Made by a program: the position numbers and the translations under genes
Shown: positions 1,642 to 41,431 of the stretch, in pieces
How positions within the stretch are numbered: position 1 is the stretch's first letter
Layout: the number at the start of each line of letters is the position of its first letter
Notes under the pieces: model-generated
Databases searched by the model: none
What the model was told of the DNA's origin: nothing
The model's input: only the letters and a program-made list of their open reading frames with translations
Source: an uncultured Coriobacteriales bacterium
GTDB lineage: Bacteria; Actinomycetota; Coriobacteriia; Coriobacteriales; UMGS124
Length of the DNA: 64,000 nt
Direction: 5' to 3'
Assembly: GCA_902464015.1 (NCBI GenBank)
Contig: CABQHM010000008.1
Coordinates: 6,253-70,252, forward strand

Positions 1642-3222
1642 TTACTCCGCTGCCTTGTAAGCTTCCAGAGACTTCTTGCCCACGGTGCAGCGCAGCACGA
1701 ACAGGACTGCGATGGTGAGCACGACGGCGATGGGCAGGCAGATGAACGCGCTGCGCACAAAGCCAGCGATGACGAACATCACAAAAGAGATGCCGGCCAC
1801 GGTGAGCGCGTAGGGGAGCTGGGTGCTCACGTGCGTGATGTGGCTCACGTTGGCACCGGCGCTCGCCATGACCGTGGTGTCGGAGATGGGCGAGATGTGG
1901 TCGCCGCAGACGGCACCGGCCAGGCATGCGGAGATGCCGATATTCATGAGCACGGGATCGGAGGAAGCGAAGATGGCGGTGACGATGGGGATGAGGATGC
2001 CGAAGGTGCCCCAGCTCGTGCCGGTGGAGAAGGCCAGGAAGACGGCAACCAGGAAGATGATGGCAGGCAGCATGGAGAAGAGGCTCTCAGCGGCGCCACC
2101 CACAACGCCGGCCACAAACACGTCGGCACCCAGGGCGCCCGTCATGGACTTGAGGGTGAGTGCGAAGGTGAGGATGAGCAGGGCCGGCACCATGGCGATG
2201 AAGCCCTTGGTGATGCAGTCCATGGCCTCCTTGAACGTCACGACGCGGCGGGCGATGAGGTAGATGATGGAGAGGATGAGTGCGATGATGGTGCCCCAAG
2301 GCAGGCCAACGGAGGCGTCGGTGTCAGAGAACGCAAGGGACGGGTTCATGTAGCCTTCGGTGGTCGCGTCCCAGAAGCCACCGACGTAGAGCATGCCGGC
2401 GATGCAGCAAATGATGAGCATGATAATCGGCACAAGCATGTCCCACAGGTTGGCCTTGGGGTTGGAGACAACGTCCTCTTTGGAGAGTTTGCCCAGCTCG
2501 CCGTCACGGTAGGCAGCAAGCTCGGCCTTGGCCATGGGGCCGTAGTCAAAGCCCATGATGCACAGGCCGATGACGAATACGATAGTCATGAGCGAGTAGA
2601 AGTTAAACGGGATGGCCTCAATGAACAGCTGGATGCCCGAGATGCCGTTATTGAGGCCGGCGGCGGTGGAGCTCACGGCGGCCGCCCACGAGGAGATGGG
2701 GGCAATCATGCAGATGGGTGCGGCCGTGGCGTCGATGATGTAGGAAAGCTTGGCGCGCGATACACGGCAGGCGTCGGTCACGGGGCGCATCACGGAACCC
2801 ACAGTGAGGCAGTTGAAGTAGTCATCGATGAAGATGAGCACGCCGAGAGCAAACGTGGCGAGCTGCGCGCCCATGCGGGACTTCACATGCTTGGCCGCCC
2901 AAGCAGCGAATGCCGCCGAGCCGCCAGCCTTGTTGACAAGGGCCACGACGATGCCGAGCATGATGAGGAAGATGAAGATACCCGCGTTGCTCGGGCTGCT
3001 TACCGCGTTGATAAAGCCGACAGTGGTCCCCTCGCCATCCACGCCGGGCACCGTGTTGGAGATGATGTTGTTTATCGTGTCGATGGGGTTGAAGCCTGCC
3101 ACGAGCAGGGCACCCACGACAATGCCGATGAACAGCGAGCTATAGGTTTCCTTGGTGATGAGGGCCAACACGATAGCCACAATGGGCGGCACGAGTGACC
3201 AAAACGTTCCGACGAACTCCAC
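1642..3222 (-). CDS. NhaC-family Na+/H+ antiporter-like transporter, probably an amino-acid (lysine-linked) carrier
   Basis: Track ORF 1642..3234. The polytopic sequence (FWSLVPPIVAIVLALITKETYSSLFIGIVVGALL...) is typical of the NhaC family. I prefer GTG 3222 as the start because GGAGGA lies 5 nt upstream; TTG 3234 is the alternative. Confidence 0.85.
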   Translation of the reverse strand: MEFVGTFWSLVPPIVAIVLALITKETYSSLFIGIVVGALLVAGFNPIDTINNIISNTVPGVDGEGTTVGFINAVSSPSNAGIFIFLIMLGIVVALVNKAGGSAAFAAWAAKHVKSRMGAQLATFALGVLIFIDDYFNCLTVGSVMRPVTDACRVSRAKLSYIIDATAAPICMIAPISSWAAAVSSTAAGLNNGISGIQLFIEAIPFNFYSLMTIVFVIGLCIMGFDYGPMAKAELAAYRDGELGKLSKEDVVSNPKANLWDMLVPIIMLIICCIAGMLYVGGFWDATTEGYMNPSLAFSDTDASVGLPWGTIIALILSIIYLIARRVVTFKEAMDCITKGFIAMVPALLILTFALTLKSMTGALGADVFVAGVVGGAAESLFSMLPAIIFLVAVFLAFSTGTSWGTFGILIPIVTAIFASSDPVLMNIGISACLAGAVCGDHISPISDTTVMASAGANVSHITHVSTQLPYALTVAGISFVMFVIAGFVRSAFICLPIAVVLTIAVLFVLRCTVGKKSLEAYKAAE

Positions 3223-3306
3223 GGTTTCCTCCAATCTGGCAGGCTCGACAGCAAGCGTCTCTTGGTCCTGTCAGGCAGAAGTATCCTCATGCGTCCGCCC
3301 GGCCTA

Positions 3307-3476
3307 GATAGCGCTCCGCCTTTCGGCGACAGTGCGGAGGATGTTCTCCCACGCCCCAGGGTGCATATGCGGAAACATATGGGCCCTTCGGCGGCTTCCC
3401 CTTTTGCCCAGGCGCACCTTTCCGGATACTGCATCTCTGCGTGCCTGGCGCTACTTATGGTTGCCGCGCCTCTATC
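3307..3476 (-). promoter_or_regulatory. Lysine riboswitch (L-box)
   Basis: Minus-strand RNA reads GAUAGAGGCGC..AAGUAG..AAAAGGGGAAGCCGCCGAAGG..CCCUGGGG..CACUGUCGCCGAAAGGCGGAGCGCUAUC. This reproduces the invariant L-box blocks (AGAGGCGC, GAGUAG, GG.GA..CGCCGAAG, CCUGG, ACUGUC). The 5' GAUAG pairs with the 3' CUAUC to close P1. It sits about 85 nt upstream of the transporter start. Confidence 0.85.
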
Positions 3477-3751
3477 GTGCCTTTGTATAAAGACGCCGCC
3501 ATAGTAGAGCACCCTGTCGCTTATGTCTTACAGGAATATGAGTTTTTAAAAAACCTTGACGGCGAGTGCATAAATAATCGAAAAACGGTTGACGGCAAAG
3601 CGATGAGCGGCGCAGGGAATTAGTCGGGAGCAAGTTCGAGGTAACGATATGGAATCCGCTGGTGATTCCGCGCTAAAATAGCCCGAATAGATGAGTGCCG
3701 CCCGCCGCGCATCGCGGCGCCCCTGCGGCATCGCGCAAGAAAGGACCTGCC

Positions 3752-36546: not shown

Positions 36547-37245
36547 ATGGCCACAAAAGAGGATTACCGCGCAATTTTGCTGCCGGGGGAGTCGTTCGGC
36601 GTGTCCCAAATCGCGCGTTACAAGGATCGCGCCCACAAAAAGAAGCTGTTCAAGGGCGAGTGCATCACAACGGTCGCGCGCAGCATTGACGACCCGTACT
36701 ACTATTACATCGACGAGGGCCAGATTCTCACGACGTTTACCGACGATTCGGGCGAAGGCACCGTTGTGGCGTGGCGCTGTGCCGGCAATGCGTTTTCGGG
36801 CGAATACAACGATTTTGCCTCGATAGGAAAATACAAGGCCCGCCATGTGGCGGCAAAAAACAGCGTCTTGTTCGTATTCTCGCAGCGACAGCTTTACGAG
36901 ATTGCCAAGGAAGACCCCGAGGTCTTCTACGAGTACGTGCACAGCTGCCATATCCACTTTGCCCAGATGGCGCACCGCCTGTCGGGAACGGGCAACACCT
37001 CAACCGCCCGCCGCCTAGCCATGTGGCTGCAAAAACTCTGCTATACCAGCGACGTTGCCGATGACGGCAGTTGCTTTATCCCGTGCAAGATCACGATTAA
37101 GCAGATAGCCGACATGCTGCGCATCCACATCACCACCGCGACCAAGCTGCTTGCATCCTTTGAAGACGCCGGCATCATCAGCCGCACGAAGGAAGGCATC
37201 CTGATTCACGACGTGAACCGCCTCGACAGCGCGGGGATGGAATAG
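36547..37245 (+). CDS. Crp/Fnr-family transcriptional regulator
   Basis: Start ATG 36547. N-terminal cNMP-binding-like beta-barrel. C-terminal HTH IKQIADMLRIHITTATKLLASFEDAGII. Confidence 0.8.
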   Translation: MATKEDYRAILLPGESFGVSQIARYKDRAHKKKLFKGECITTVARSIDDPYYYYIDEGQILTTFTDDSGEGTVVAWRCAGNAFSGEYNDFASIGKYKARHVAAKNSVLFVFSQRQLYEIAKEDPEVFYEYVHSCHIHFAQMAHRLSGTGNTSTARRLAMWLQKLCYTSDVADDGSCFIPCKITIKQIADMLRIHITTATKLLASFEDAGIISRTKEGILIHDVNRLDSAGME

Positions 37246-37305: not shown

Positions 37306-37420
37306 CGGTATACTGTGTTGCGATGGGCCCGGGATGACCGCTGATTCAAGTCACCGGGCCTGAATTTGTACCTGTGGGGAATTCGCGTGGCGGACGCCAA
37401 CCAAGAACTTCGAGGGTAGC
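37306..37420 (+). repeat. Copy 1 of a ~110-nt repeat carrying a conserved hairpin
   Basis: TATACTGTGTTGCGATGGGCCCGGGATGACCGCTGATTCAAGTCACCGGGCCTGAATTTGTACCTGT... Stems GGCCCGG/CCGGGCC and TGAC/GTCA. Homologous to 40365-40500. Confidence 0.6.
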
Positions 37421-37473
37421 GAGAACGAGAAGGATATGGGAGGGCAGCCACTAGCGGGGCTTTGCTCTCCCAA

Positions 37474-37507
37474 TAAAAAAACTGGAGCGAAACCGCTAAG
37501 CAGCTCC
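37474..37507 (-). terminator. Rho-independent terminator of the abi gene
   Basis: Minus strand reads GGAGCTGCTTAGCGGTTTCGCTCC then AGTTTTTTTATT. Confidence 0.75.
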
Positions 37508-37543
37508 GCCCCTACAAACCCGAAGGTTTTACGTATGAGAGTA

Positions 37544-38554
37544 TCATGACTGCACCGGTGCCCAGATGTCAACAAGCTTTAGAAGAAAATCAAAGAACGA
37601 TGTAATTACGTTGTTCCCCTCAAAGAGCGGGCGACTCTTCTCCCATGAGCCTCTCAGCGCCTCTAGTGATCTAGCGTGCCTTGCCTTCGTTTCGGATCTT
37701 ATGCAGACCAGCTGCGCCGCGTAGAGGGTTGAAGCAATCTGAACGGTTCTCAGGTTCGAGAGCCTTGCGCGTCTTGACTTGGTTCGCTTGAGACCATGCT
37801 TGTTAAGCGACGCGGTTATGAGGGCGTTGACGTCCGTACTTGCCTTCTGTTCCGTTCGCGACACGCCGTTGAGAATGCAGCTGTTGTGGGCGCAGGCGTT
37901 TCTGAGTCCCTGCGTGCTTCGAAGCACATAGTGCTCCTGTCGCATCTCTTCGTCGTCCCAACGGTTTGCGCAAAAGAGGTAGAGAGAATTGAGCGTGCCG
38001 AATTCTGCTGCCTCAAGGAGCACCCATATTGGGATGCCGGTGTTGTAGTAGTGTGCAACGAGATCGCCCGAGTACTCATCGTGCTTTTCGTCGCCGTTGC
38101 TTCTGCCTTTGAGGTTGCCACTGATGTAGCTGCGGCCCTTGTGATTCATCTGTGCCAAGAAGTCCTCGACAATTGCGTAGCCGTCTTCTCTGTGGGCCTC
38201 GCACTTGTTGAGCAATCTGACGCGAGTGAAGTGCTCCACGTCGATTGCGATGGGTAGCAGACATTCTCTGAGTTGCCTGTCCAGTGAGGAAAGGCTTCGC
38301 AAGTGCTCGAAGTCAAGTCCCAGGTACTTGCCTACGTGTGGGCCCTGGTCCTGTACTGGAAAGAGTTTACGGTAAGAGGATGTGCGTAATAGGTTATTGC
38401 CCGAACGGAGATAGTCGGTGGCTTCGGCCTCGGTGCAGAGGGCGAAGGTTACGCCTTTGGACTTGAGGTGGGCGATTTGCTCGGGTACTGTGAGCAGGGG
38501 CTTGTTGTGTGGCTGTTGCTGGGCCCCGTGAGCTTGGCCGCTGTCTTCGGACAT
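37544..38554 (-). CDS. Abi_2 (AbiD/AbiF-like) abortive-infection family protein
   Basis: LTVPEQIAHLKSKGVTFALCTEAEATDYLRSGNNLLRTSSYRKLF and downstream LRNACAHNSCIL fit the Abi_2 family pattern. About 336 aa. Confidence 0.8.
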   Translation of the reverse strand: MSEDSGQAHGAQQQPHNKPLLTVPEQIAHLKSKGVTFALCTEAEATDYLRSGNNLLRTSSYRKLFPVQDQGPHVGKYLGLDFEHLRSLSSLDRQLRECLLPIAIDVEHFTRVRLLNKCEAHREDGYAIVEDFLAQMNHKGRSYISGNLKGRSNGDEKHDEYSGDLVAHYYNTGIPIWVLLEAAEFGTLNSLYLFCANRWDDEEMRQEHYVLRSTQGLRNACAHNSCILNGVSRTEQKASTDVNALITASLNKHGLKRTKSRRARLSNLRTVQIASTLYAAQLVCIRSETKARHARSLEALRGSWEKSRPLFEGNNVITSFFDFLLKLVDIWAPVQS

Positions 38555-38843
38555 TGGGGCCCTCCTGTCGAGCTCGGTTGGATCGTATTGTGCCGTGCAT
38601 CGGGAATCCTGCGGTTTACATGGGGCCTGCGGGGGTCTTTCGAGTCGGCGTGTCAGTTCTCTCGCATGTAGATTCTTCTCGTAGAGATTGATGAGATGGG
38701 AACCATCATCGAACCGTTCATGAAGGGCCGAGTGAGTGGTCAGTAGTTCGACGGCGCACTGCTCTCACAAGATTCATCAGCATATGCGCTCGTTTCGAGC
38801 ATATGCCCTCTCTTCGCAGGGAGATAAAGGTGCCGCCATCTTT

Positions 38844-39230
38844 CTACTTCCAGTCCTGGGAGGTGTTTGCCGCCTCGCGGAATTCGAGGTACCGCATGAA
38901 ATCGTCGAGCATCTCGCGGCCGCTTCTGCTGAGCCTGCGCACGCGGTCATCGAGCGTGGGCGTGCGCTTGGCGTCGATATCGTCGCGGCCCACTACGAGG
39001 TCGATGCTGACGCCGAGCTCGTCGGCCATGGCCCAGGCGGCGGGAAGCGGTATGCCGGAGTTCGGGTCCTCCGGGGCCCGCTCGTAGCGAGAGTACGTGG
39101 AGTTGGGGATGTTGAGCGCGGCGGCGAACTCCTTGGCCGACGAGTAGCCGGCCTCGCGGCGCAGGCGCTGAAGCGTGCGCTTTCCATAGGCCTTTCCCGC
39201 ATCGCGGCGTGATACGACAGTAGATGACAT
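38844..39230 (-). CDS. XRE-family helix-turn-helix regulator
   Basis: LQRLRREAGYSSAKEFAAALNIPNSTYSRYER...LPAAWAMADELGVSIDLVVGR. Confidence 0.8.
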   Translation of the reverse strand: MSSTVVSRRDAGKAYGKRTLQRLRREAGYSSAKEFAAALNIPNSTYSRYERAPEDPNSGIPLPAAWAMADELGVSIDLVVGRDDIDAKRTPTLDDRVRRLSRSGREMLDDFMRYLEFREAANTSQDWK

Positions 39231-39329
39231 ATGCTGTCACTTGTCCTTTCCTGAAAGCGGTTTCTGGGAAACGGACGCACCATGCCCGCAAGGGCGTCAC
39301 CCTCTTCGGGCACCCTTGTTCATCGGGGC

Positions 39330-39971
39330 CTAAGACATCGAGCCCATCTCTTTCTCGGACTCGCGTACGGCTGCCATGTCGACCTTGGCGTACCTGATGG
39401 ACATGCCCTTGAATTCGAAGTCGCCGTGGATGCGGTCGTATGCGGCCATGATCTTGCCCATCGAATCCCTCACCCCGAGCTCCTGGCGCTCGTCAGCGCG
39501 CCTCTCCAGATACTCTTTGAATCGCTCACGCAGCTCGGCCGTCGTGGCCGACAAGGCGACGCCGGGCTCGTTGCAGTCGAGCTCGGCCAAAAAGAGACTG
39601 TCGAGCCTTGCGCACAGCGCCTCGGTGCGACGGTGCTCGGCCTCTGCCTTTCGCTTGGCTGTATCGGCGTTCTTGGCGGCCAAAAAGTCCAGGTAGTCGT
39701 CGAGCGAGGATTGGAACTCGGGGGCGAGCGCGTCGTAGCGCAGTTGCACCTCGCCGCGCTCTTCGGCGGGCGCGGGCTCGTTGCGGTCGACTATGACGTC
39801 GATGGACACGCCGAACTCGTCGGCGAGGCGCCAGGCGGCGGTGAGGGGAATCTTTTCAGGGCTGGACTCGTAGCGGGCGTAGGTGGTGAACGGGATGCCC
39901 ATCGCTTCGGCGAAGTCCCTGGCCGTCCTGTACCCGGCTCGCTTCCTCAGCTCCTGCAAGCCGCTTGCCAT
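39330..39971 (-). CDS. XRE-family helix-turn-helix regulator with a coiled-coil C-terminal extension (paralog of 38844..39230)
   Basis: LQELRKRAGYRTARDFAEAMGIPFTTYARYES...LTAAWRLADEFGVSIDVIVDR. Confidence 0.8.
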   Translation of the reverse strand: MASGLQELRKRAGYRTARDFAEAMGIPFTTYARYESSPEKIPLTAAWRLADEFGVSIDVIVDRNEPAPAEERGEVQLRYDALAPEFQSSLDDYLDFLAAKNADTAKRKAEAEHRRTEALCARLDSLFLAELDCNEPGVALSATTAELRERFKEYLERRADERQELGVRDSMGKIMAAYDRIHGDFEFKGMSIRYAKVDMAAVRESEKEMGSMS

Positions 39972-40364
39972 TTCGAATCAACTCCTCGTTTATTTTCATC
40001 CTGTGGGGGCGGGTCCCGCAAGATGGGGATTCATGCGACGCTTCGGGGCCAATTGTAGCTATATGTGGTGATTCGTGCTAGTAAAAAAACACCAAAATTC
40101 GCAAACAGTCTCAATCAAAGCTAAATTGCATGATATTATGGCGTAGTTTGAAAGCGCAATGTACTCTCTGATGAGAACTTGAGGGTTCTCGTGTGTCACG
40201 AGATGGAGAGTACTCAGCGCGAACGCGACCGGCCACGCAAGCAGAACGCGCGGCTGTGCGGGAAGTGTGGGCTGGTGGGAAGAAGCCAGCACGGACGGGG
40301 TTGAGCGCTTGTGTCGTGTTGACGGGTCACAACTTTCAGGCTCTTGTATAAACTTTTGGGCCGC

Positions 40365-40500
40365 GTCATAATACTGGCCAATGGCCCCGGAATGACCTCT
40401 GATTCAAGTCACCGGGGCTCGATTTGTTTACTTGTACGGATTCGAGGACGTGACCCTGGACAAGTTCCTTGAGGAGCACCCCGTGCCGGTGGATGTCAAG
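40365..40500 (+). repeat. Copy 2 of the hairpin-bearing repeat
   Basis: CATAATACTGGCCAATGGCCCCGGAATGACCTCTGATTCAAGTCACCGGGGCTCGATTTGTTTACTTGT... Stem GCCCCGG/CCGGGGC is maintained by compensatory changes. A TTGTAT-17nt-CATAAT promoter-like element lies just upstream. Confidence 0.6.
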
Positions 40501-40789
40501 TTTTAGACCTTAAACCAATGCCCATTTGTGAACGCTTTTGTGAAGCGGGCGGTTTGTGACGCCTGAGGATAATGCTGCCAGCGCAGGACAACCCTATAGA
40601 CGGTGATTTCCATGCCGAAACGAGGCCGACCGAGGAGATGGTCGAGCAGGCCAGCAAGCTGAAAAACGACAGGCTCTTTAATGGCGGCATAATGTCTCGT
40701 GCCGTTCGCAAACCTCCGACAGTTCGGGTATGTCTCGCAAGTCGGCCCATATGTATGATGGCTCCACTCTTTCAGGCGGGAGCATTCTC

Positions 40790-41431
40790 ATGGAACAGGT
40801 TTTGGCCGTTCTGGGCGATGCCATCCAAAGCACCCACCCCTTTGTCCTTTATTTCGTGGGTATGAACGTACTCACATTCGTTCTCTTCGCAATCGACTAT
40901 GCGATAGTCTGTCGCAACCAGGACCCGGACACCGGGCTCATGGATGGCAGGATTCTGACGCTGTTTGCCGTGGTGGGTCGTGCCCTCGGGATGTTCGTCG
41001 CCTTGGCCATCTTTACCAGGCTACACATGAACAAGGCCAACATCGCCTGGTGGTTCAGCGCCATAATGCTCCTGATTGTCTGGGTTCTCGTCGTTCTCGT
41101 GTGGGCCGGCGTCATCGAGCTGAGCCCGGACCTTGGTGCGCCGTTCAATATCCCCGTTCTTGTCGGGTTGGGCGTATACCTTCTTCTTATCAATGTCGTC
41201 ACGTTCGCCGTCTTCTGTCTGGACAAGAAGAGAGCCGTCAACCGGAGCAGCAGGTTTCCCGAGGCCGCCCTGCTGGGCCTCTCGCTCGCCGGAGGGTCCC
41301 TGGGCGGCATCGTCGCCATGCGAGTCGCGCACCACAAGACGTCCAAGTGGTATTTCACGGTTGGGCTGTCTGCGTTCATCGCCCTGCACGTCGTGCTGTT
41401 CTTTTTTGCGCACAGTGCCGGGATCGTTTAG
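40790..41431 (+). CDS. DUF1294-domain membrane protein (extended/duplicated form)
   Basis: Track ORF 40730..41431, ATG 40790. The C-terminal half (FCLDKKRAVNRSSRFPEAALLGLSLAGGSLGGIVAMRVAHHKTSKWYF) matches the DUF1294 signature. The N-terminal half is a degenerate copy. Confidence 0.7.
   Translation: MEQVLAVLGDAIQSTHPFVLYFVGMNVLTFVLFAIDYAIVCRNQDPDTGLMDGRILTLFAVVGRALGMFVALAIFTRLHMNKANIAWWFSAIMLLIVWVLVVLVWAGVIELSPDLGAPFNIPVLVGLGVYLLLINVVTFAVFCLDKKRAVNRSSRFPEAALLGLSLAGGSLGGIVAMRVAHHKTSKWYFTVGLSAFIALHVVLFFFAHSAGIV

What the first reader, a model, noticed from the sequence alone, without database searches (positions are those of the whole stretch)
37306..40500. Diverged ~110-nt direct repeats with a covarying hairpin bracket the abi / XRE / XRE cassette
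Two homologous segments (37306-37420 and 40365-40500) flank exactly the Abi_2 gene and the two paralogous XRE regulators. Both contain ATGG-stem-(G/A)ATGACC(G/T)CTGATTCAAGTCA-stem. The outer stem differs (GGCCCGG/CCGGGCC versus GCCCCGG/CCGGGGC) but stays complementary, and the inner TGAC/GTCA stem and loop are identical. Preserved pairing despite sequence change argues for selection on structure. Copy 2 is preceded by a good promoter-like TTGTAT-17-CATAAT and copy 1 by TATACT, so the hairpins may sit at the 5' ends of small transcripts. Downstream similarity continues for ~60 nt with indels, including a relic reading frame ...FVYLYGFEDVTLDKFLEEHPVPVDVKF-stop in copy 2. Possible explanations are att-like boundaries of a 3-kb mobile cassette, a repeated sRNA or antitoxin-like RNA serving the Abi module, or a REP/MITE-type element.
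Basis: seen in the sequence. Interest (0 to 1): 0.55.

Follow-up and report, generated by a model that had tools for sequence, protein, structure and literature searches.

The report
Orphaned leader hairpins of AbiF genes
The two repeats are copies of a 37-base RNA hairpin that, in related gut Coriobacteriia, sits between the promoter and the start codon of an AbiF-type abortive-infection (HEPN RNase) gene. In this genome both partner genes have been lost, so the repeats are leftover promoter-and-hairpin leaders, not the ends of a mobile cassette.

Summary
The repeat is real but shorter than reported, about 70 nt. Each copy has a -10 box, a 10-nt gap and a 37-nt hairpin (37325-37361 and 40383-40419, + strand). 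These are the only two copies in 64 kb.

The hairpin belongs to a family that no Rfam 15 model matched in any stretch searched. In 73 of 75 metagenome loci chosen only by an AbiF-like protein, it lies between a TANNNT box and the Shine-Dalgarno/start of that gene. It shows compensatory and G-U changes, and its subtypes track the protein clades. The protein clade matches Pfam Abi_2 and keeps the R-x4-H motif. Its model's best solved-structure match is PbAbiF bound to its ncRNA (8VZ6).

Copy 2 keeps the divergent XRE pair, promoter and hairpin, then jumps to the last ~25 codons of abiF, a deletion of about 0.8 kb relative to locus L031. Copy 1 belongs to a second lineage and keeps only the SD and a 10-codon stub.

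The best reading is orphaned leaders of an AbiF toxin/RNA-antitoxin system. This is a new hairpin variant of the known abiF-motif/AbiFr kind. The att-site and REP readings are not supported. RNA-protein binding and antitoxin activity are inferred, not shown.

The parts
37309..37314 (+). -10-like box TATACT of copy 1
   Evidence: Read from the sequence. A TANNNT hexamer ends 5-12 nt before the hairpin in 72 of 73 protein-anchored loci. The simple sigma-70 scan does not flag it because the -35 is weak.
37325..37361 (+). Hairpin copy 1: GGGCCCGG-GA-UGAC-CGCUGAUUCAA-GUCA-CCGGGCCU, 12 of 12 pairs, subtype of the L040/L153-L168 AbiF clade
   Evidence: Model R1 scores 65.6 bits, E = 9e-14. Fold energy is -19.2 kcal/mol, z = -2.68.
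37376..37419 (+). Relic of the first abiF gene: SD-like GGGGAA, then GTG GCG GAC GCC AAC CAA GAA CTT CGA GGG TAG (MADANQELRG, stop)
   Evidence: It aligns with the SD and start codons of intact loci L153 and L161. No further match to the AbiF profile follows.
37484..37512 (-). Intrinsic terminator of the resident Abi_2 gene. It is not part of the hairpin module but lies in the path of any transcript from copy 1.
   Evidence: The terminator scan finds 13 pairs followed by AGTTTTTTTA.
37544..38554 (-). Resident Abi_2/AbiD-type gene (336 aa, HEPN motif RNACAH). It is not the hairpin's cognate partner.
   Evidence: Pfam Abi_2 E = 1.7e-21. PADLOC AbiD E = 1.1e-20. BLASTP against the cognate clade gives E = 2.2. 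No homologue occurs in any hairpin locus.
38844..39230 (-). XRE-family regulator 1 (128 aa)
   Evidence: Pfam HTH_3. A 78%-identical homologue lies next to hairpin-abiF in L147, and others occur in L145 and L162.
39330..39971 (-). XRE-family regulator 2 (213 aa), divergent from the promoter of hairpin copy 2
   Evidence: Pfam HTH_3. It is 98% identical over the 50 residues present in L031 and 53% identical in L147, with the same divergent layout.
40344..40372 (+). Promoter-like TTGTAT-17-CATAAT of copy 2
   Evidence: Read from the sequence. The -10 position is conserved across loci. The region is 82% identical to L031.
40383..40419 (+). Hairpin copy 2: GGCCCCGG-AA-UGAC-CUCUGAUUCAA-GUCA-CCGGGGCU, 12 of 12 pairs, subtype of the L031/L126-L141 AbiF clade
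   Evidence: Model R1 scores 63.3 bits, E = 3.2e-13. Fold energy is -18.9 kcal/mol, z = -2.63.
40426..40506 (+). 3' relic of the deleted abiF gene: VYLYGFEDVTLDKFLEEHPVPVDVKF, stop. The deletion junction is at about 40430.
   Evidence: It aligns to positions 226-250 of 251 in the AbiF-clade profile. It is the only hit in the six-frame window, E = 1.8e-5. It is 86% identical in DNA to the 3' end of the intact L031 gene.

Best explanation
The repeats are two copies of a promoter-proximal module: a -10 box, about 10 nt, then a 37-nt RNA hairpin. In Coriobacteriia this module is the 5' leader of a clade of AbiF-like (Abi_2/HEPN) abortive-infection genes.

Shown:
- The hairpin family exists and is strand-specific.
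- It keeps its pairing through compensatory and wobble changes.
- It sits at a fixed distance from a -10 box and 10-20 nt before the SD of the AbiF-like gene.
- Its sequence subtypes follow the protein clades.
- In this window both partner genes are gone.
- Copy 2 is the remnant of an XRE-XRE | promoter-hairpin-abiF module. An internal deletion of about 0.8 kb joined the leader to the last ~25 codons.
- Copy 1 comes from a second abiF lineage and keeps only the SD and a 10-codon stub.

Inferred by analogy with PbAbiF-AbiFr and C. difficile AbiF-RCd22:
- The transcript starts a few bases before the hairpin.
- The AbiF dimer binds the hairpin, which neutralises its HEPN RNase (RNA antitoxin).
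- Because the hairpin lies just before the SD, binding probably also limits translation of abiF.
- Phage infection or loss of the RNA would free the toxin.

The two window copies are most likely recent orphans with no cognate toxin nearby.
For: Repeat and strand:
- The repeat is real and has exactly two copies.
- A genome scan with the 21-nt core hit its 120-locus limit. Nearly all hits are Coriobacteriia: Collinsella, Senegalimassilia, Slackia, Ellagibacter and Olsenella.

Linkage to AbiF-like genes:
- In the independent protein-anchored metagenome sample, 73 of 75 loci with at least 150 nt upstream carry the hairpin.
- Of those 73, 72 have TANNNT ending 5-12 nt before it, and 68 have an SD-like motif within 45 nt after it.

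RNA structure:
- Among 23 distinct sequences, 95.7% of cells pair, against 30-51% when the partner column is slid.
- Three pairs change on both sides: CG/GC/AU, CG/UA/UG and UA/CG/UG.
- The closing pair is G-U in 14 sequences and A-U in 8.
- Of the hairpins before an intact abiF, 69 of 74 keep 12 of 12 pairs. Some orphan copies elsewhere have decayed to 9-11 pairs.

The protein clade is AbiF-like:
- Pfam Abi_2 matches 9 of 9 members, and PADLOC calls AbiD.
- The R-x4-H motif is conserved: His invariant, Arg at least 90%.
- The only PDB sequence hit is 8VZ6.
- An AlphaFold model (pLDDT 86) has 8vz6_A, 'PbAbiF dimer bound to ncRNA', as its top hit: prob 1.00, TM 0.50.

Relics in the window:
- L031 is 82% identical across XRE2, the intergenic region and the hairpin. 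It is 86% identical to the relic, and it has an intact 281-aa gene between them.
- The relic matches the profile's C-terminus.
- Copy 1 aligns with the SD and start of intact loci.

Known biology comes from PMC12373285 and PMC12737573.
Against: - No RNA-protein binding, toxicity or transcript data exist for this clade. The antitoxin step rests on analogy.
- Rfam's abiF model RF03085 does not match the hairpin at E up to 10 or up to 1. Its architecture also differs.
- There is no terminator between hairpin and ORF, unlike RCd22.
- In more than 90 Collinsella species-level genomes a perfectly paired copy precedes a DnaQ-like exonuclease or a SIMPL gene. Single loci show it before an AbiEi-like gene, a HEPN+CBS gene or a membrane-protein gene, mostly with no intact abiF in the 8-kb locus. 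The hairpin may therefore have a role beyond serving AbiF.
- Covariation is modest (3 of 12 pairs), and many sequences are close relatives.
- Subtype/clade tracking could reflect linkage rather than co-adaptation.
Confidence: 0.68

Rival explanations
1. The orphan hairpins still work. They would be transcribed from their own promoters as small RNAs that act in trans. Possible roles are an antidote for the resident 336-aa Abi_2 toxin, an antidote for a cognate abiF elsewhere in the genome, or protection against incoming abiF-bearing elements (anti-addiction). This refines the first reader's sRNA idea.
For: Both window copies keep 12 of 12 pairs, the family's invariant loop positions and the -10 box. 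Orphan copies in other genomes have often decayed. RCd22 neutralises AbiF in trans (PMC12373285). Collinsella keeps intact hairpins without a nearby abiF, with arm diversity about 0.01 against 0.09-0.15 in the downstream leader.
Against: The resident Abi_2 is only distantly related to the cognate clade and is never linked to the hairpin in about 200 loci. Hairpin subtypes track their own protein clades, so cross-recognition is doubtful. No cognate abiF lies in the 64-kb window. A 37-nt element can stay intact by chance after a recent deletion, and the relic is still 86% identical to L031.
Confidence: 0.12
2. The inverted repeat is a DNA operator. It would be a palindrome just downstream of the -10 box, bound by the divergently encoded XRE regulators to repress the abiF promoter. 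The 'covariation' would then reflect matched half-sites.
For: It lies between the -10 box and the SD. An XRE pair is adjacent in the window, L031 and L147. Matched changes in both arms also preserve a DNA palindrome.
Against: The closing pair is G-U in 14 of 23 distinct sequences. U-G intermediates occur at three more pairs. These are tolerated in RNA but break a DNA palindrome. The model is strongly strand-specific, 65 against 12 bits. The 11-nt asymmetric loop is the most conserved part. Homologues of these XRE genes occur in only 4 of about 200 loci, and in L145 they lie on the other side of abiF.
Confidence: 0.08
3. The hairpin modules are recombination boundaries. They would be att-like or attC-like sites, or homologous anchors at which defence cassettes are inserted and exchanged, and the 3-kb Abi_2/XRE/XRE block would be one such cassette.
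For: Hairpin copies flank single genes in other genomes. Pairs lie 1045 or 1362 nt apart around a SIMPL gene in Collinsella. A second copy sits 18-30 nt after the abiF stop in L026, L127-L130 and L159. The region is a variable defence island.
Against: The bracketed 3 kb holds no integrase or transposase. The two copies are of different lineages and each carries a relic of its own gene. XRE2-hairpin 2 is one conserved module. A strain 94.8% identical up to the Crp stop diverges at 37245, 80 nt before hairpin 1. The centre of the element is the conserved part and the outer arms vary, the reverse of attC. The exact core was absent from IMG/VR viral contigs.
Confidence: 0.07
4. The element is a generic REP/MITE-type dispersed repeat, or a plain 5' stabiliser or terminator hairpin with no specific partner.
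For: It is a GC-rich stable hairpin. In Collinsella it occurs before several unrelated genes.
Against: Only two copies occur in 64 kb. Promoter-proximal position and orientation are constant in the protein-anchored loci. The loop sequence is nearly invariant across genera. No run of U follows the stem, so it is not a terminator.
Confidence: 0.03

Closest known systems
abiF RNA motif (Rfam RF03085) and RCd22, the RNA antitoxin of AbiF in Clostridioides difficile prophages (PMC12373285)
   Same: Both are 37-nt hairpins with a GC-rich outer stem, a small 5' bulge, a short inner stem and a loop of about 11 nt. Both lie a few bases after the transcription start and directly upstream of an Abi_2/AbiF gene. 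Extra or orphan copies occur in both. A role as protein-bound RNA antitoxin is plausible for both.
   Different: - RF03085 does not match the window or 19 related loci (E up to 10; up to 1). It does find both motifs in phage phiC2.
- The RF03085 consensus is CCCGCC-A-AGC-loop-GCU-CAAAUC-GGCGGG, with a 6-nt 3' internal loop. Our hairpin has stems of 8 and 4 bp, no 3' internal loop and an unrelated sequence.
- There is one hairpin per gene, not two.
- No terminator separates the RNA from the ORF.
- The hosts are Actinomycetota (Coriobacteriia), not Bacillota.
PbAbiF-AbiFr ribonucleoprotein (PDB 8VZ6; Zilberzwige-Tal et al. 2025, as summarised in PMC12737573 and PMC12373285)
   Same: The cognate protein clade's best solved-structure match is 8vz6_A (prob 1.00, TM 0.50, full-length alignment). 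The alignment is collinear and includes the RNxxxH segment. The ncRNA is encoded in cis upstream of the gene.
   Different: Sequence identity is about 14%, and the PDB sequence match is weak (E = 0.66 to 1.9). Binding and RNase inhibition are untested for this clade.
Classical type III toxin-antitoxin systems (ToxIN, CptIN, TenpIN)
   Same: Both have a protein RNase toxin preceded by a cis-encoded structured RNA under the same promoter. Both are linked to abortive infection.
   Different: The antitoxin is not a tandem repeat array. No terminator sets the antitoxin:toxin ratio. The toxin is a HEPN protein, not a ToxN/AbiQ fold.
Integron attC sites and att sites of integrative elements
   Same: Both are imperfect inverted repeats found on both sides of single genes in some loci.
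   Different: There is no integrase. The conserved centre with variable arms is the opposite of attC. The element sits 5' of genes, after a -10 box. The window's two copies are not two halves of one recombination event.

Membership tests
AbiF / Abi_2 (AbiD/F) HEPN proteins - applies to the hairpin's cognate protein clade and to the window relic | Match to Pfam PF07751 Abi_2 above the curated cut-off | tested here: met
   Nine of nine clade members match (best E = 1e-9). L031 scores 31.1 bits against a cut-off of 25.6. The database annotates the family as PF07751 / 'Abi family protein'.
AbiF / Abi_2 (AbiD/F) HEPN proteins | HEPN catalytic motif R-phi-x-x-x-H | tested here: met
   The motif is RNR(I/V)AH. 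In the 35-sequence alignment the His is invariant, and the Arg and Asn are conserved in at least 90% of sequences. It aligns with RNSCCH of 8VZ6.
AbiF / Abi_2 (AbiD/F) HEPN proteins | Fold like the solved AbiF (8VZ6) | tested here: met
   The AlphaFold2 model has pLDDT 86.4 and pTM 0.78. Foldseek's top PDB hit is 8vz6_A: E = 1.6e-3, prob 1.00, TM 0.50/0.48. The next hit is a Csm6 HEPN protein at prob 0.35. The similarity is moderate, not close.
AbiF / Abi_2 (AbiD/F) HEPN proteins | Toxic RNase activity and phage exclusion | not testable with these tools
   This needs expression and phage assays.
abiF RNA motif (Rfam RF03085) | Match to the family covariance model | tested here: not met
   No RF03085 match at E up to 10 in either window copy or in 15 related loci, and none at E up to 1 in four more. 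As a positive control, phage phiC2 gives 37.6 and 19.5 bits.
abiF RNA motif (Rfam RF03085) | Architecture: 6-bp outer stem, 1-nt 5' bulge, 3-bp inner stem, and a 3' internal loop CAAAUC | tested here: not met
   Our hairpin has an 8-bp outer stem, a 2-3-nt 5' bulge, a 4-bp inner stem and no 3' internal loop. An abiF-like alternative fold (GAU/AUU plus a CAAGUCA bulge) conflicts with the observed UGAC/GUCA to CGAC/GUCG covariation. Total length (37 nt) and loop size are the same.
abiF RNA motif (Rfam RF03085) | Position directly upstream of an abiF gene, near the transcription start | tested here: met
   This holds in 73 of 75 protein-anchored loci, with the -10 box 5-12 nt before the hairpin. 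In the window itself the genes are deleted.
Type III toxin-antitoxin systems (RNA antitoxin binding a protein toxin) | RNA binds and neutralises the toxin protein | not testable with these tools
   This is inferred from AbiF-RCd22 and PbAbiF-AbiFr only.
Type III toxin-antitoxin systems | Antitoxin as tandem repeats, followed by a terminator before the toxin gene | tested here: not met
   There is a single hairpin per gene. No terminator-like site follows the hairpins, and only 10-20 nt separate the hairpin from the SD.
att sites of an integrated mobile element | Recombinase gene inside or beside the bracketed segment | tested here: not met
   The 3 kb encodes only Abi_2 and two XRE proteins.
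att sites of an integrated mobile element | Empty site in close relatives, with the junction at the repeat | tested here: inconclusive
   Exact-protein look-ups found only this genome. The one related strain, L206 (94.8% identity), diverges at the Crp stop codon 37245, upstream of hairpin 1. Its contig ends before the right side.
REP / MITE dispersed repeats | Many copies at unrelated intergenic sites | tested here: not met
   Two copies occur in 64 kb with a sensitive model. The context is constant in the protein-anchored loci. The rest of this genome was not available.

The most novel reading that the evidence does not exclude
The promoter-plus-hairpin module may not be only AbiF's private antitoxin. 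It may be a portable RNA leader specific to Coriobacteriia and shared by several unrelated toxin and defence genes: AbiF-like, AbiEi-like, HEPN+CBS, a DnaQ-like exonuclease and a SIMPL protein. Under this reading it would be kept as functional orphan copies, such as the two here. These could act as trans antidotes against abiF-carrying invaders. They could also be one common sensor or regulatory RNA of a defence island, or anchors for swapping defence genes.
Probability: 0.15. Interest if true: 0.7.

Novelty: new variant of a known kind. Interest (0 to 1): 0.48.

Why it matters
AbiF with its cis-encoded hairpin RNA has been proposed as the ancestor of Cas13 and its crRNA. So far it has been characterised in Bacillota and Bacteroidota examples.

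This finding points to a separate hairpin class that no Rfam 15 model matched in the stretches searched. It is tied to a Coriobacteriia-wide AbiF-like clade and is common in human-gut Collinsella, Senegalimassilia, Slackia and relatives.

The class offers a natural series of matched hairpin and protein variants for testing how AbiF recognises its RNA. It also offers natural orphans and decayed copies that show how such modules erode. It would fill an annotation gap, since these leaders and the gene relics are currently unannotated. For this window, it replaces a 'mobile cassette' reading with two eroded defence modules inside a variable defence island.

Tried and rejected
- **tRNA or tmRNA fragment as an att target.** ARAGORN finds none in the window.
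- **Any known RNA family.** The Rfam gathering scan of the window finds only a lysine riboswitch elsewhere. E-value scans of both copies, the Abi_2 upstream region, 15 diverse loci and four Collinsella/Slackia loci find nothing relevant.
- **Reading the repeat as a tiny ORF** (ATGACC... gives MTADSSHR...). It ends after 9 codons in copy 1, and family conservation follows pairing, not codons.
- **Empty-site search.** Exact look-ups of the Abi_2, DUF1294 and Crp proteins returned only this same genome. A homologue search with the Crp protein gave one short contig from a related strain.
- **Phage carriage.** The exact core is absent from IMG/VR viral contigs.
- **An intact cognate abiF in the window.** There is none.
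- **Hairpin plus U-rich tract as an intrinsic terminator.** It does not meet the scan's criteria.
- **MAFFT alignment of the hairpins.** It misplaced the 1-nt bulge-length difference. A covariance-model alignment was used instead.
- **Literature search for AbiF in Coriobacteriia.** Nothing relevant was found. The Cell 2025 AbiF/Cas13e paper did not turn up in two library searches. I could not check whether its ncRNA survey already includes this clade.

Full report
**1. The observation**

The window holds two direct copies of a hairpin-containing segment on the + strand. The repeat finder reports 37323-37369 and 40381-40427, 47 nt at 87% identity. The 25-nt core occurs exactly twice with up to three mismatches allowed, and none is expected in shuffles.

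I built a covariance model from related sequences (R1) and ran it with filters off over all 64 kb. It scores only 37325-37361 (65.6 bits) and 40383-40419 (63.3 bits). The reverse complements score 12-13 bits, so the signal is strand-specific.

Each 37-mer folds alone into the same shape: an 8-bp GC-rich outer stem, a 2-nt 5' bulge, a 4-bp UGAC/GUCA inner stem and an 11-nt loop. The energy is about -19 kcal/mol, with z = -2.6 to -2.7.

The two copies align from the -10-like boxes (TATACT at 37309-37314, CATAAT at 40367-40372) to ...ATTTGT. That is about 70 nt, not 110.

**2. The genes around it**

| Coordinates | Strand | Gene |
|---|---|---|
| 36547-37245 | + | Crp-like regulator |
| 37544-38554 | - | 336-aa Abi_2/AbiD-type gene |
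| 38844-39230 | - | XRE paralogue 1 |
| 39330-39971 | - | XRE paralogue 2 |
| 40730-41431 | + | DUF1294 gene |

A type I restriction-modification system lies further right. All three 'cassette' genes are on the strand opposite the hairpins. Copy 1 is therefore convergent with the 3' end of Abi_2, and copy 2 is divergent from XRE2.

**3. What the hairpin is elsewhere**

A scan of one genome per GTDB species with the 21-nt core stopped at its 120-locus limit. Nearly all hits are Coriobacteriia: mostly Collinsella, plus Senegalimassilia, Slackia, Ellagibacter and Olsenella.

In many loci the layout is a -10 box, about 10 nt, the hairpin, 10-20 nt, AGGAG, then a TTG or ATG start. The gene encodes a protein of 241-281 aa with WAE+WLS..R...YL near the N-terminus and ...FL..HPAPV.VEL at the C-terminus.

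That sample was chosen by the hairpin itself, so I drew a second sample chosen only by the protein. An alignment of nine such proteins (A2) retrieved 80 metagenome loci at 41-79% identity.
- Of the 75 loci with at least 150 nt upstream, 73 carry the hairpin just upstream.
- Of those 73, 72 have a TANNNT hexamer ending 5-12 nt before it.
- 68 have an SD-like motif within 45 nt after it.

**4. RNA or DNA?**

On the model-guided alignment of the protein-anchored hits (84 hits, 23 distinct sequences), 95.7% of cells form standard pairs. With the partner slid by 1-3 columns the figure is 30-51%.

Three pairs change on both sides:

| Pair | Types seen |
|---|---|
| Outer position 3 | CG / GC / AU |
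| Outer position 5 | CG / UA, with a UG intermediate |
| First inner pair | UA / CG, with a UG intermediate |

The closing pair is G-U in 14 distinct sequences and A-U in 8. G-U and U-G pairs, the strand asymmetry and the near-invariant asymmetric loop all fit a folded RNA on the + strand. They do not fit a DNA palindrome.

The covariation is modest and many sequences are related. I therefore treat the structure as well supported, not proven.

**5. The partner protein**

- All nine clade members match Pfam Abi_2, and PADLOC calls AbiD.
- The HEPN motif RNR(I/V)AH is conserved. The His is invariant, and the Arg and Asn are in at least 90% of sequences.
- The only PDB sequence hit is 8VZ6, 'Abi family protein'. 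The hit is weak (E = 0.66 to 1.9) but collinear, and it includes the RNxxxH segment.
- An AlphaFold2 model of a 93%-identical family member (pLDDT 86.4) has 8vz6_A, 'PbAbiF dimer bound to ncRNA', as its top Foldseek hit. The match has prob 1.00 and TM 0.50 over the full length.

The clade is a diverged AbiF-like family.

**6. What is known about AbiF**

AbiF proteins are HEPN RNase toxins held in check by a cis-encoded hairpin ncRNA.
- In C. difficile, RCd22 carries two abiF motifs (Rfam RF03085, 36-37 nt). It binds AbiF and neutralises it in cis and in trans.
- PbAbiF was solved as a dimer with two ncRNAs.
- The system has been proposed as the ancestor of Cas13.

These points come from PMC12373285 and PMC12737573.

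I recovered the RF03085 consensus from phage phiC2 as a positive control: CCCGCC-A-AGC-loop-GCU-CAAAUC-GGCGGG-U, 37 nt.

Our hairpin has the same length and general plan but a different sequence and no 3' internal loop. RF03085 matches neither window copy nor any of 19 related loci. An abiF-like refolding of our sequence is contradicted by the observed covariation. It works like an abiF motif by position and size but fails the membership test for RF03085.

**7. What happened in this window**

*Copy 2.* Locus L031, from a Coriobacteriales MAG, is 82% identical to window 39821-40429. That stretch covers the XRE2 N-terminus, the intergenic region, the promoter and the hairpin. L031 is also 86% identical to window 40443-40513. 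Between these two stretches L031 has an intact 281-aa abiF-like gene.

The window frame VYLYGFEDVTLDKFLEEHPVPVDVKF-stop aligns to profile positions 226-250 of 251. It is the only match to the clade profile in the six-frame window (E = 1.8e-5).

Copy 2 is therefore a promoter-hairpin leader joined, at about 40430, to the last ~25 codons of its own gene. This is an internal deletion of about 0.8 kb.

The XRE pair belongs to this module. Homologues lie next to hairpin-abiF in L147 (78% and 53% identity, same divergent layout), L145, L162 and L031. The 336-aa Abi_2 has no homologue in any of the roughly 200 loci.

*Copy 1.* It has the other hairpin subtype (GGGCCCGG..., G in the loop). That subtype goes with a different AbiF subclade, L040 and L153-L168, at 43-51% identity to L031. 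It is followed by an SD and GTG GCG GAC GCC..., giving MADANQELRG-stop. This aligns with the start of intact genes. It then loses all similarity.

The two copies are relics of two lineages, not a local duplication and not the two ends of one insertion.

*The island boundary.* A strain 94.8% identical up to the Crp stop codon diverges completely from 37246 onward. Hairpin 1 therefore lies inside a variable island, not at its edge.

**8. Mechanism**

Shown:
- the conserved promoter-hairpin-SD-abiF anatomy;
- pairing conservation;
- linkage to AbiF-like genes;
- erosion of the genes in this window.

Inferred:
- transcription starts 1-5 nt before the hairpin;
- the AbiF dimer binds the hairpin, inhibiting its RNase and probably its own translation;
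- the toxin is released on infection.

Hairpins before intact genes keep 12 of 12 pairs in 69 of 74 cases. Several orphan copies elsewhere have decayed to 9-11 pairs. This suggests orphans are usually not maintained. The two window orphans are still perfect, which fits either recent loss or a residual trans function.

**9. What does not fit neatly**

In Collinsella, perfectly paired copies precede other genes. A DnaQ-like exonuclease gene follows a 170-nt leader. A copy without a -10 box precedes a SIMPL gene. Most of these loci have no intact abiF within 8 kb.

The unforced stem arms there are about ten times less diverse than the downstream leader, 0.01 against 0.09-0.15. Single loci show the module before an AbiEi-like gene, a HEPN+CBS gene and a membrane protein. 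Second, partly decayed copies sit just after the stop codon of abiF or of the exonuclease gene.

These facts keep alive a broader role: a shared leader, a trans antidote or a recombination anchor. I give that reading about 15%.

**10. Verdict**

The att and REP interpretations are not supported. The 'antitoxin-like RNA' idea is close, but the partner is a deleted AbiF-like gene, not the resident Abi_2.

The hairpin family is a new variant of a known kind, the AbiF-associated ncRNA. No Rfam 15 model matched it in the stretches searched. I could not check whether the 2025 AbiF/Cas13e survey already lists it.

Noticed in passing
window 3301-3482 (-): Lysine riboswitch aptamer, 79.2 bits, full-length match to RF00168.
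   Followed up: no
window 37246 to about 47000; L206: The stretch right of the Crp-like gene looks like a variable defence island. It holds two eroded abiF modules, an Abi_2 gene, an XRE pair and a type I R-M system (hsdM from 43390, then hsdS and hsdR). A strain 94.8% identical up to the Crp stop codon has unrelated sequence from 37246 on.
   Followed up: partly
window about 37509-37532 and L206 about 2170-2195: A shared 24-nt motif, CCCCTA(C/A)AAACCCGAAGGTTTT(A/G)CG, lies just 3' of the first minus-strand gene in two otherwise unrelated islands. On the minus strand it forms an AAACC-UUCG-GGUUU hairpin. It could be a terminator or a junction.
   Followed up: no
L078 about 1948-2073 (L078 + strand), and the sequence abutting the hairpin at L078 about 3045-3140: Collinsella loci carry a 41-aa hydrophobic ORF, MTDLIDFVKLLTALVSLLTALIGLSEALKQRTKQKKRGRRR, with an SD. 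A convergent TTGnTA-N17-TAGAAT promoter overlaps its 3' end, which looks like a type I toxin-antitoxin. A 5'-truncated paralogue is fused directly to the promoter-less hairpin copy. Pfam finds no match.
   Followed up: partly
L078, L006, L155, L160 and about 100 other Collinsella loci: The same hairpin, perfectly paired, precedes a DnaQ-like 3'-5' exonuclease gene via a conserved leader of about 170 nt. A copy without a -10 box precedes a SIMPL-domain gene. Copies lie 1045 or 1362 nt apart, forming short hairpin-gene-hairpin arrays.
   Followed up: partly
L026 982; L127-L130 3345-3382; L159 1341-1378: A second hairpin copy with a weakened inner stem (CAAC against GUCA) sits 18-30 nt after the abiF stop codon, so the gene is flanked by hairpins on both sides.
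   Followed up: partly
L083 (Ellagibacter MAG) 3348 and 4165 (-); L099/L106; L050: The promoter-hairpin module also precedes other genes. These are an AbiEi-like 201-aa gene (followed by a second hairpin and abiF), a 251-aa protein with an RNLLSH HEPN-like motif that I read as carrying CBS-like domains (not scanned), and a 233-aa membrane protein.
   Followed up: no
L031 6199-6492 (-): A fragment of an IS200/IS605-type TnpA (...TRWDCTYHIVWIPKYRRKV...) lies immediately downstream of the intact abiF gene.
   Followed up: no
window 38555-38843 (-): The 289-nt gap between XRE1 and the resident 336-aa Abi_2 gene has no RF03085 or other credible Rfam match. I did not examine whether this Abi_2 has an RNA partner of its own.
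   Followed up: partly
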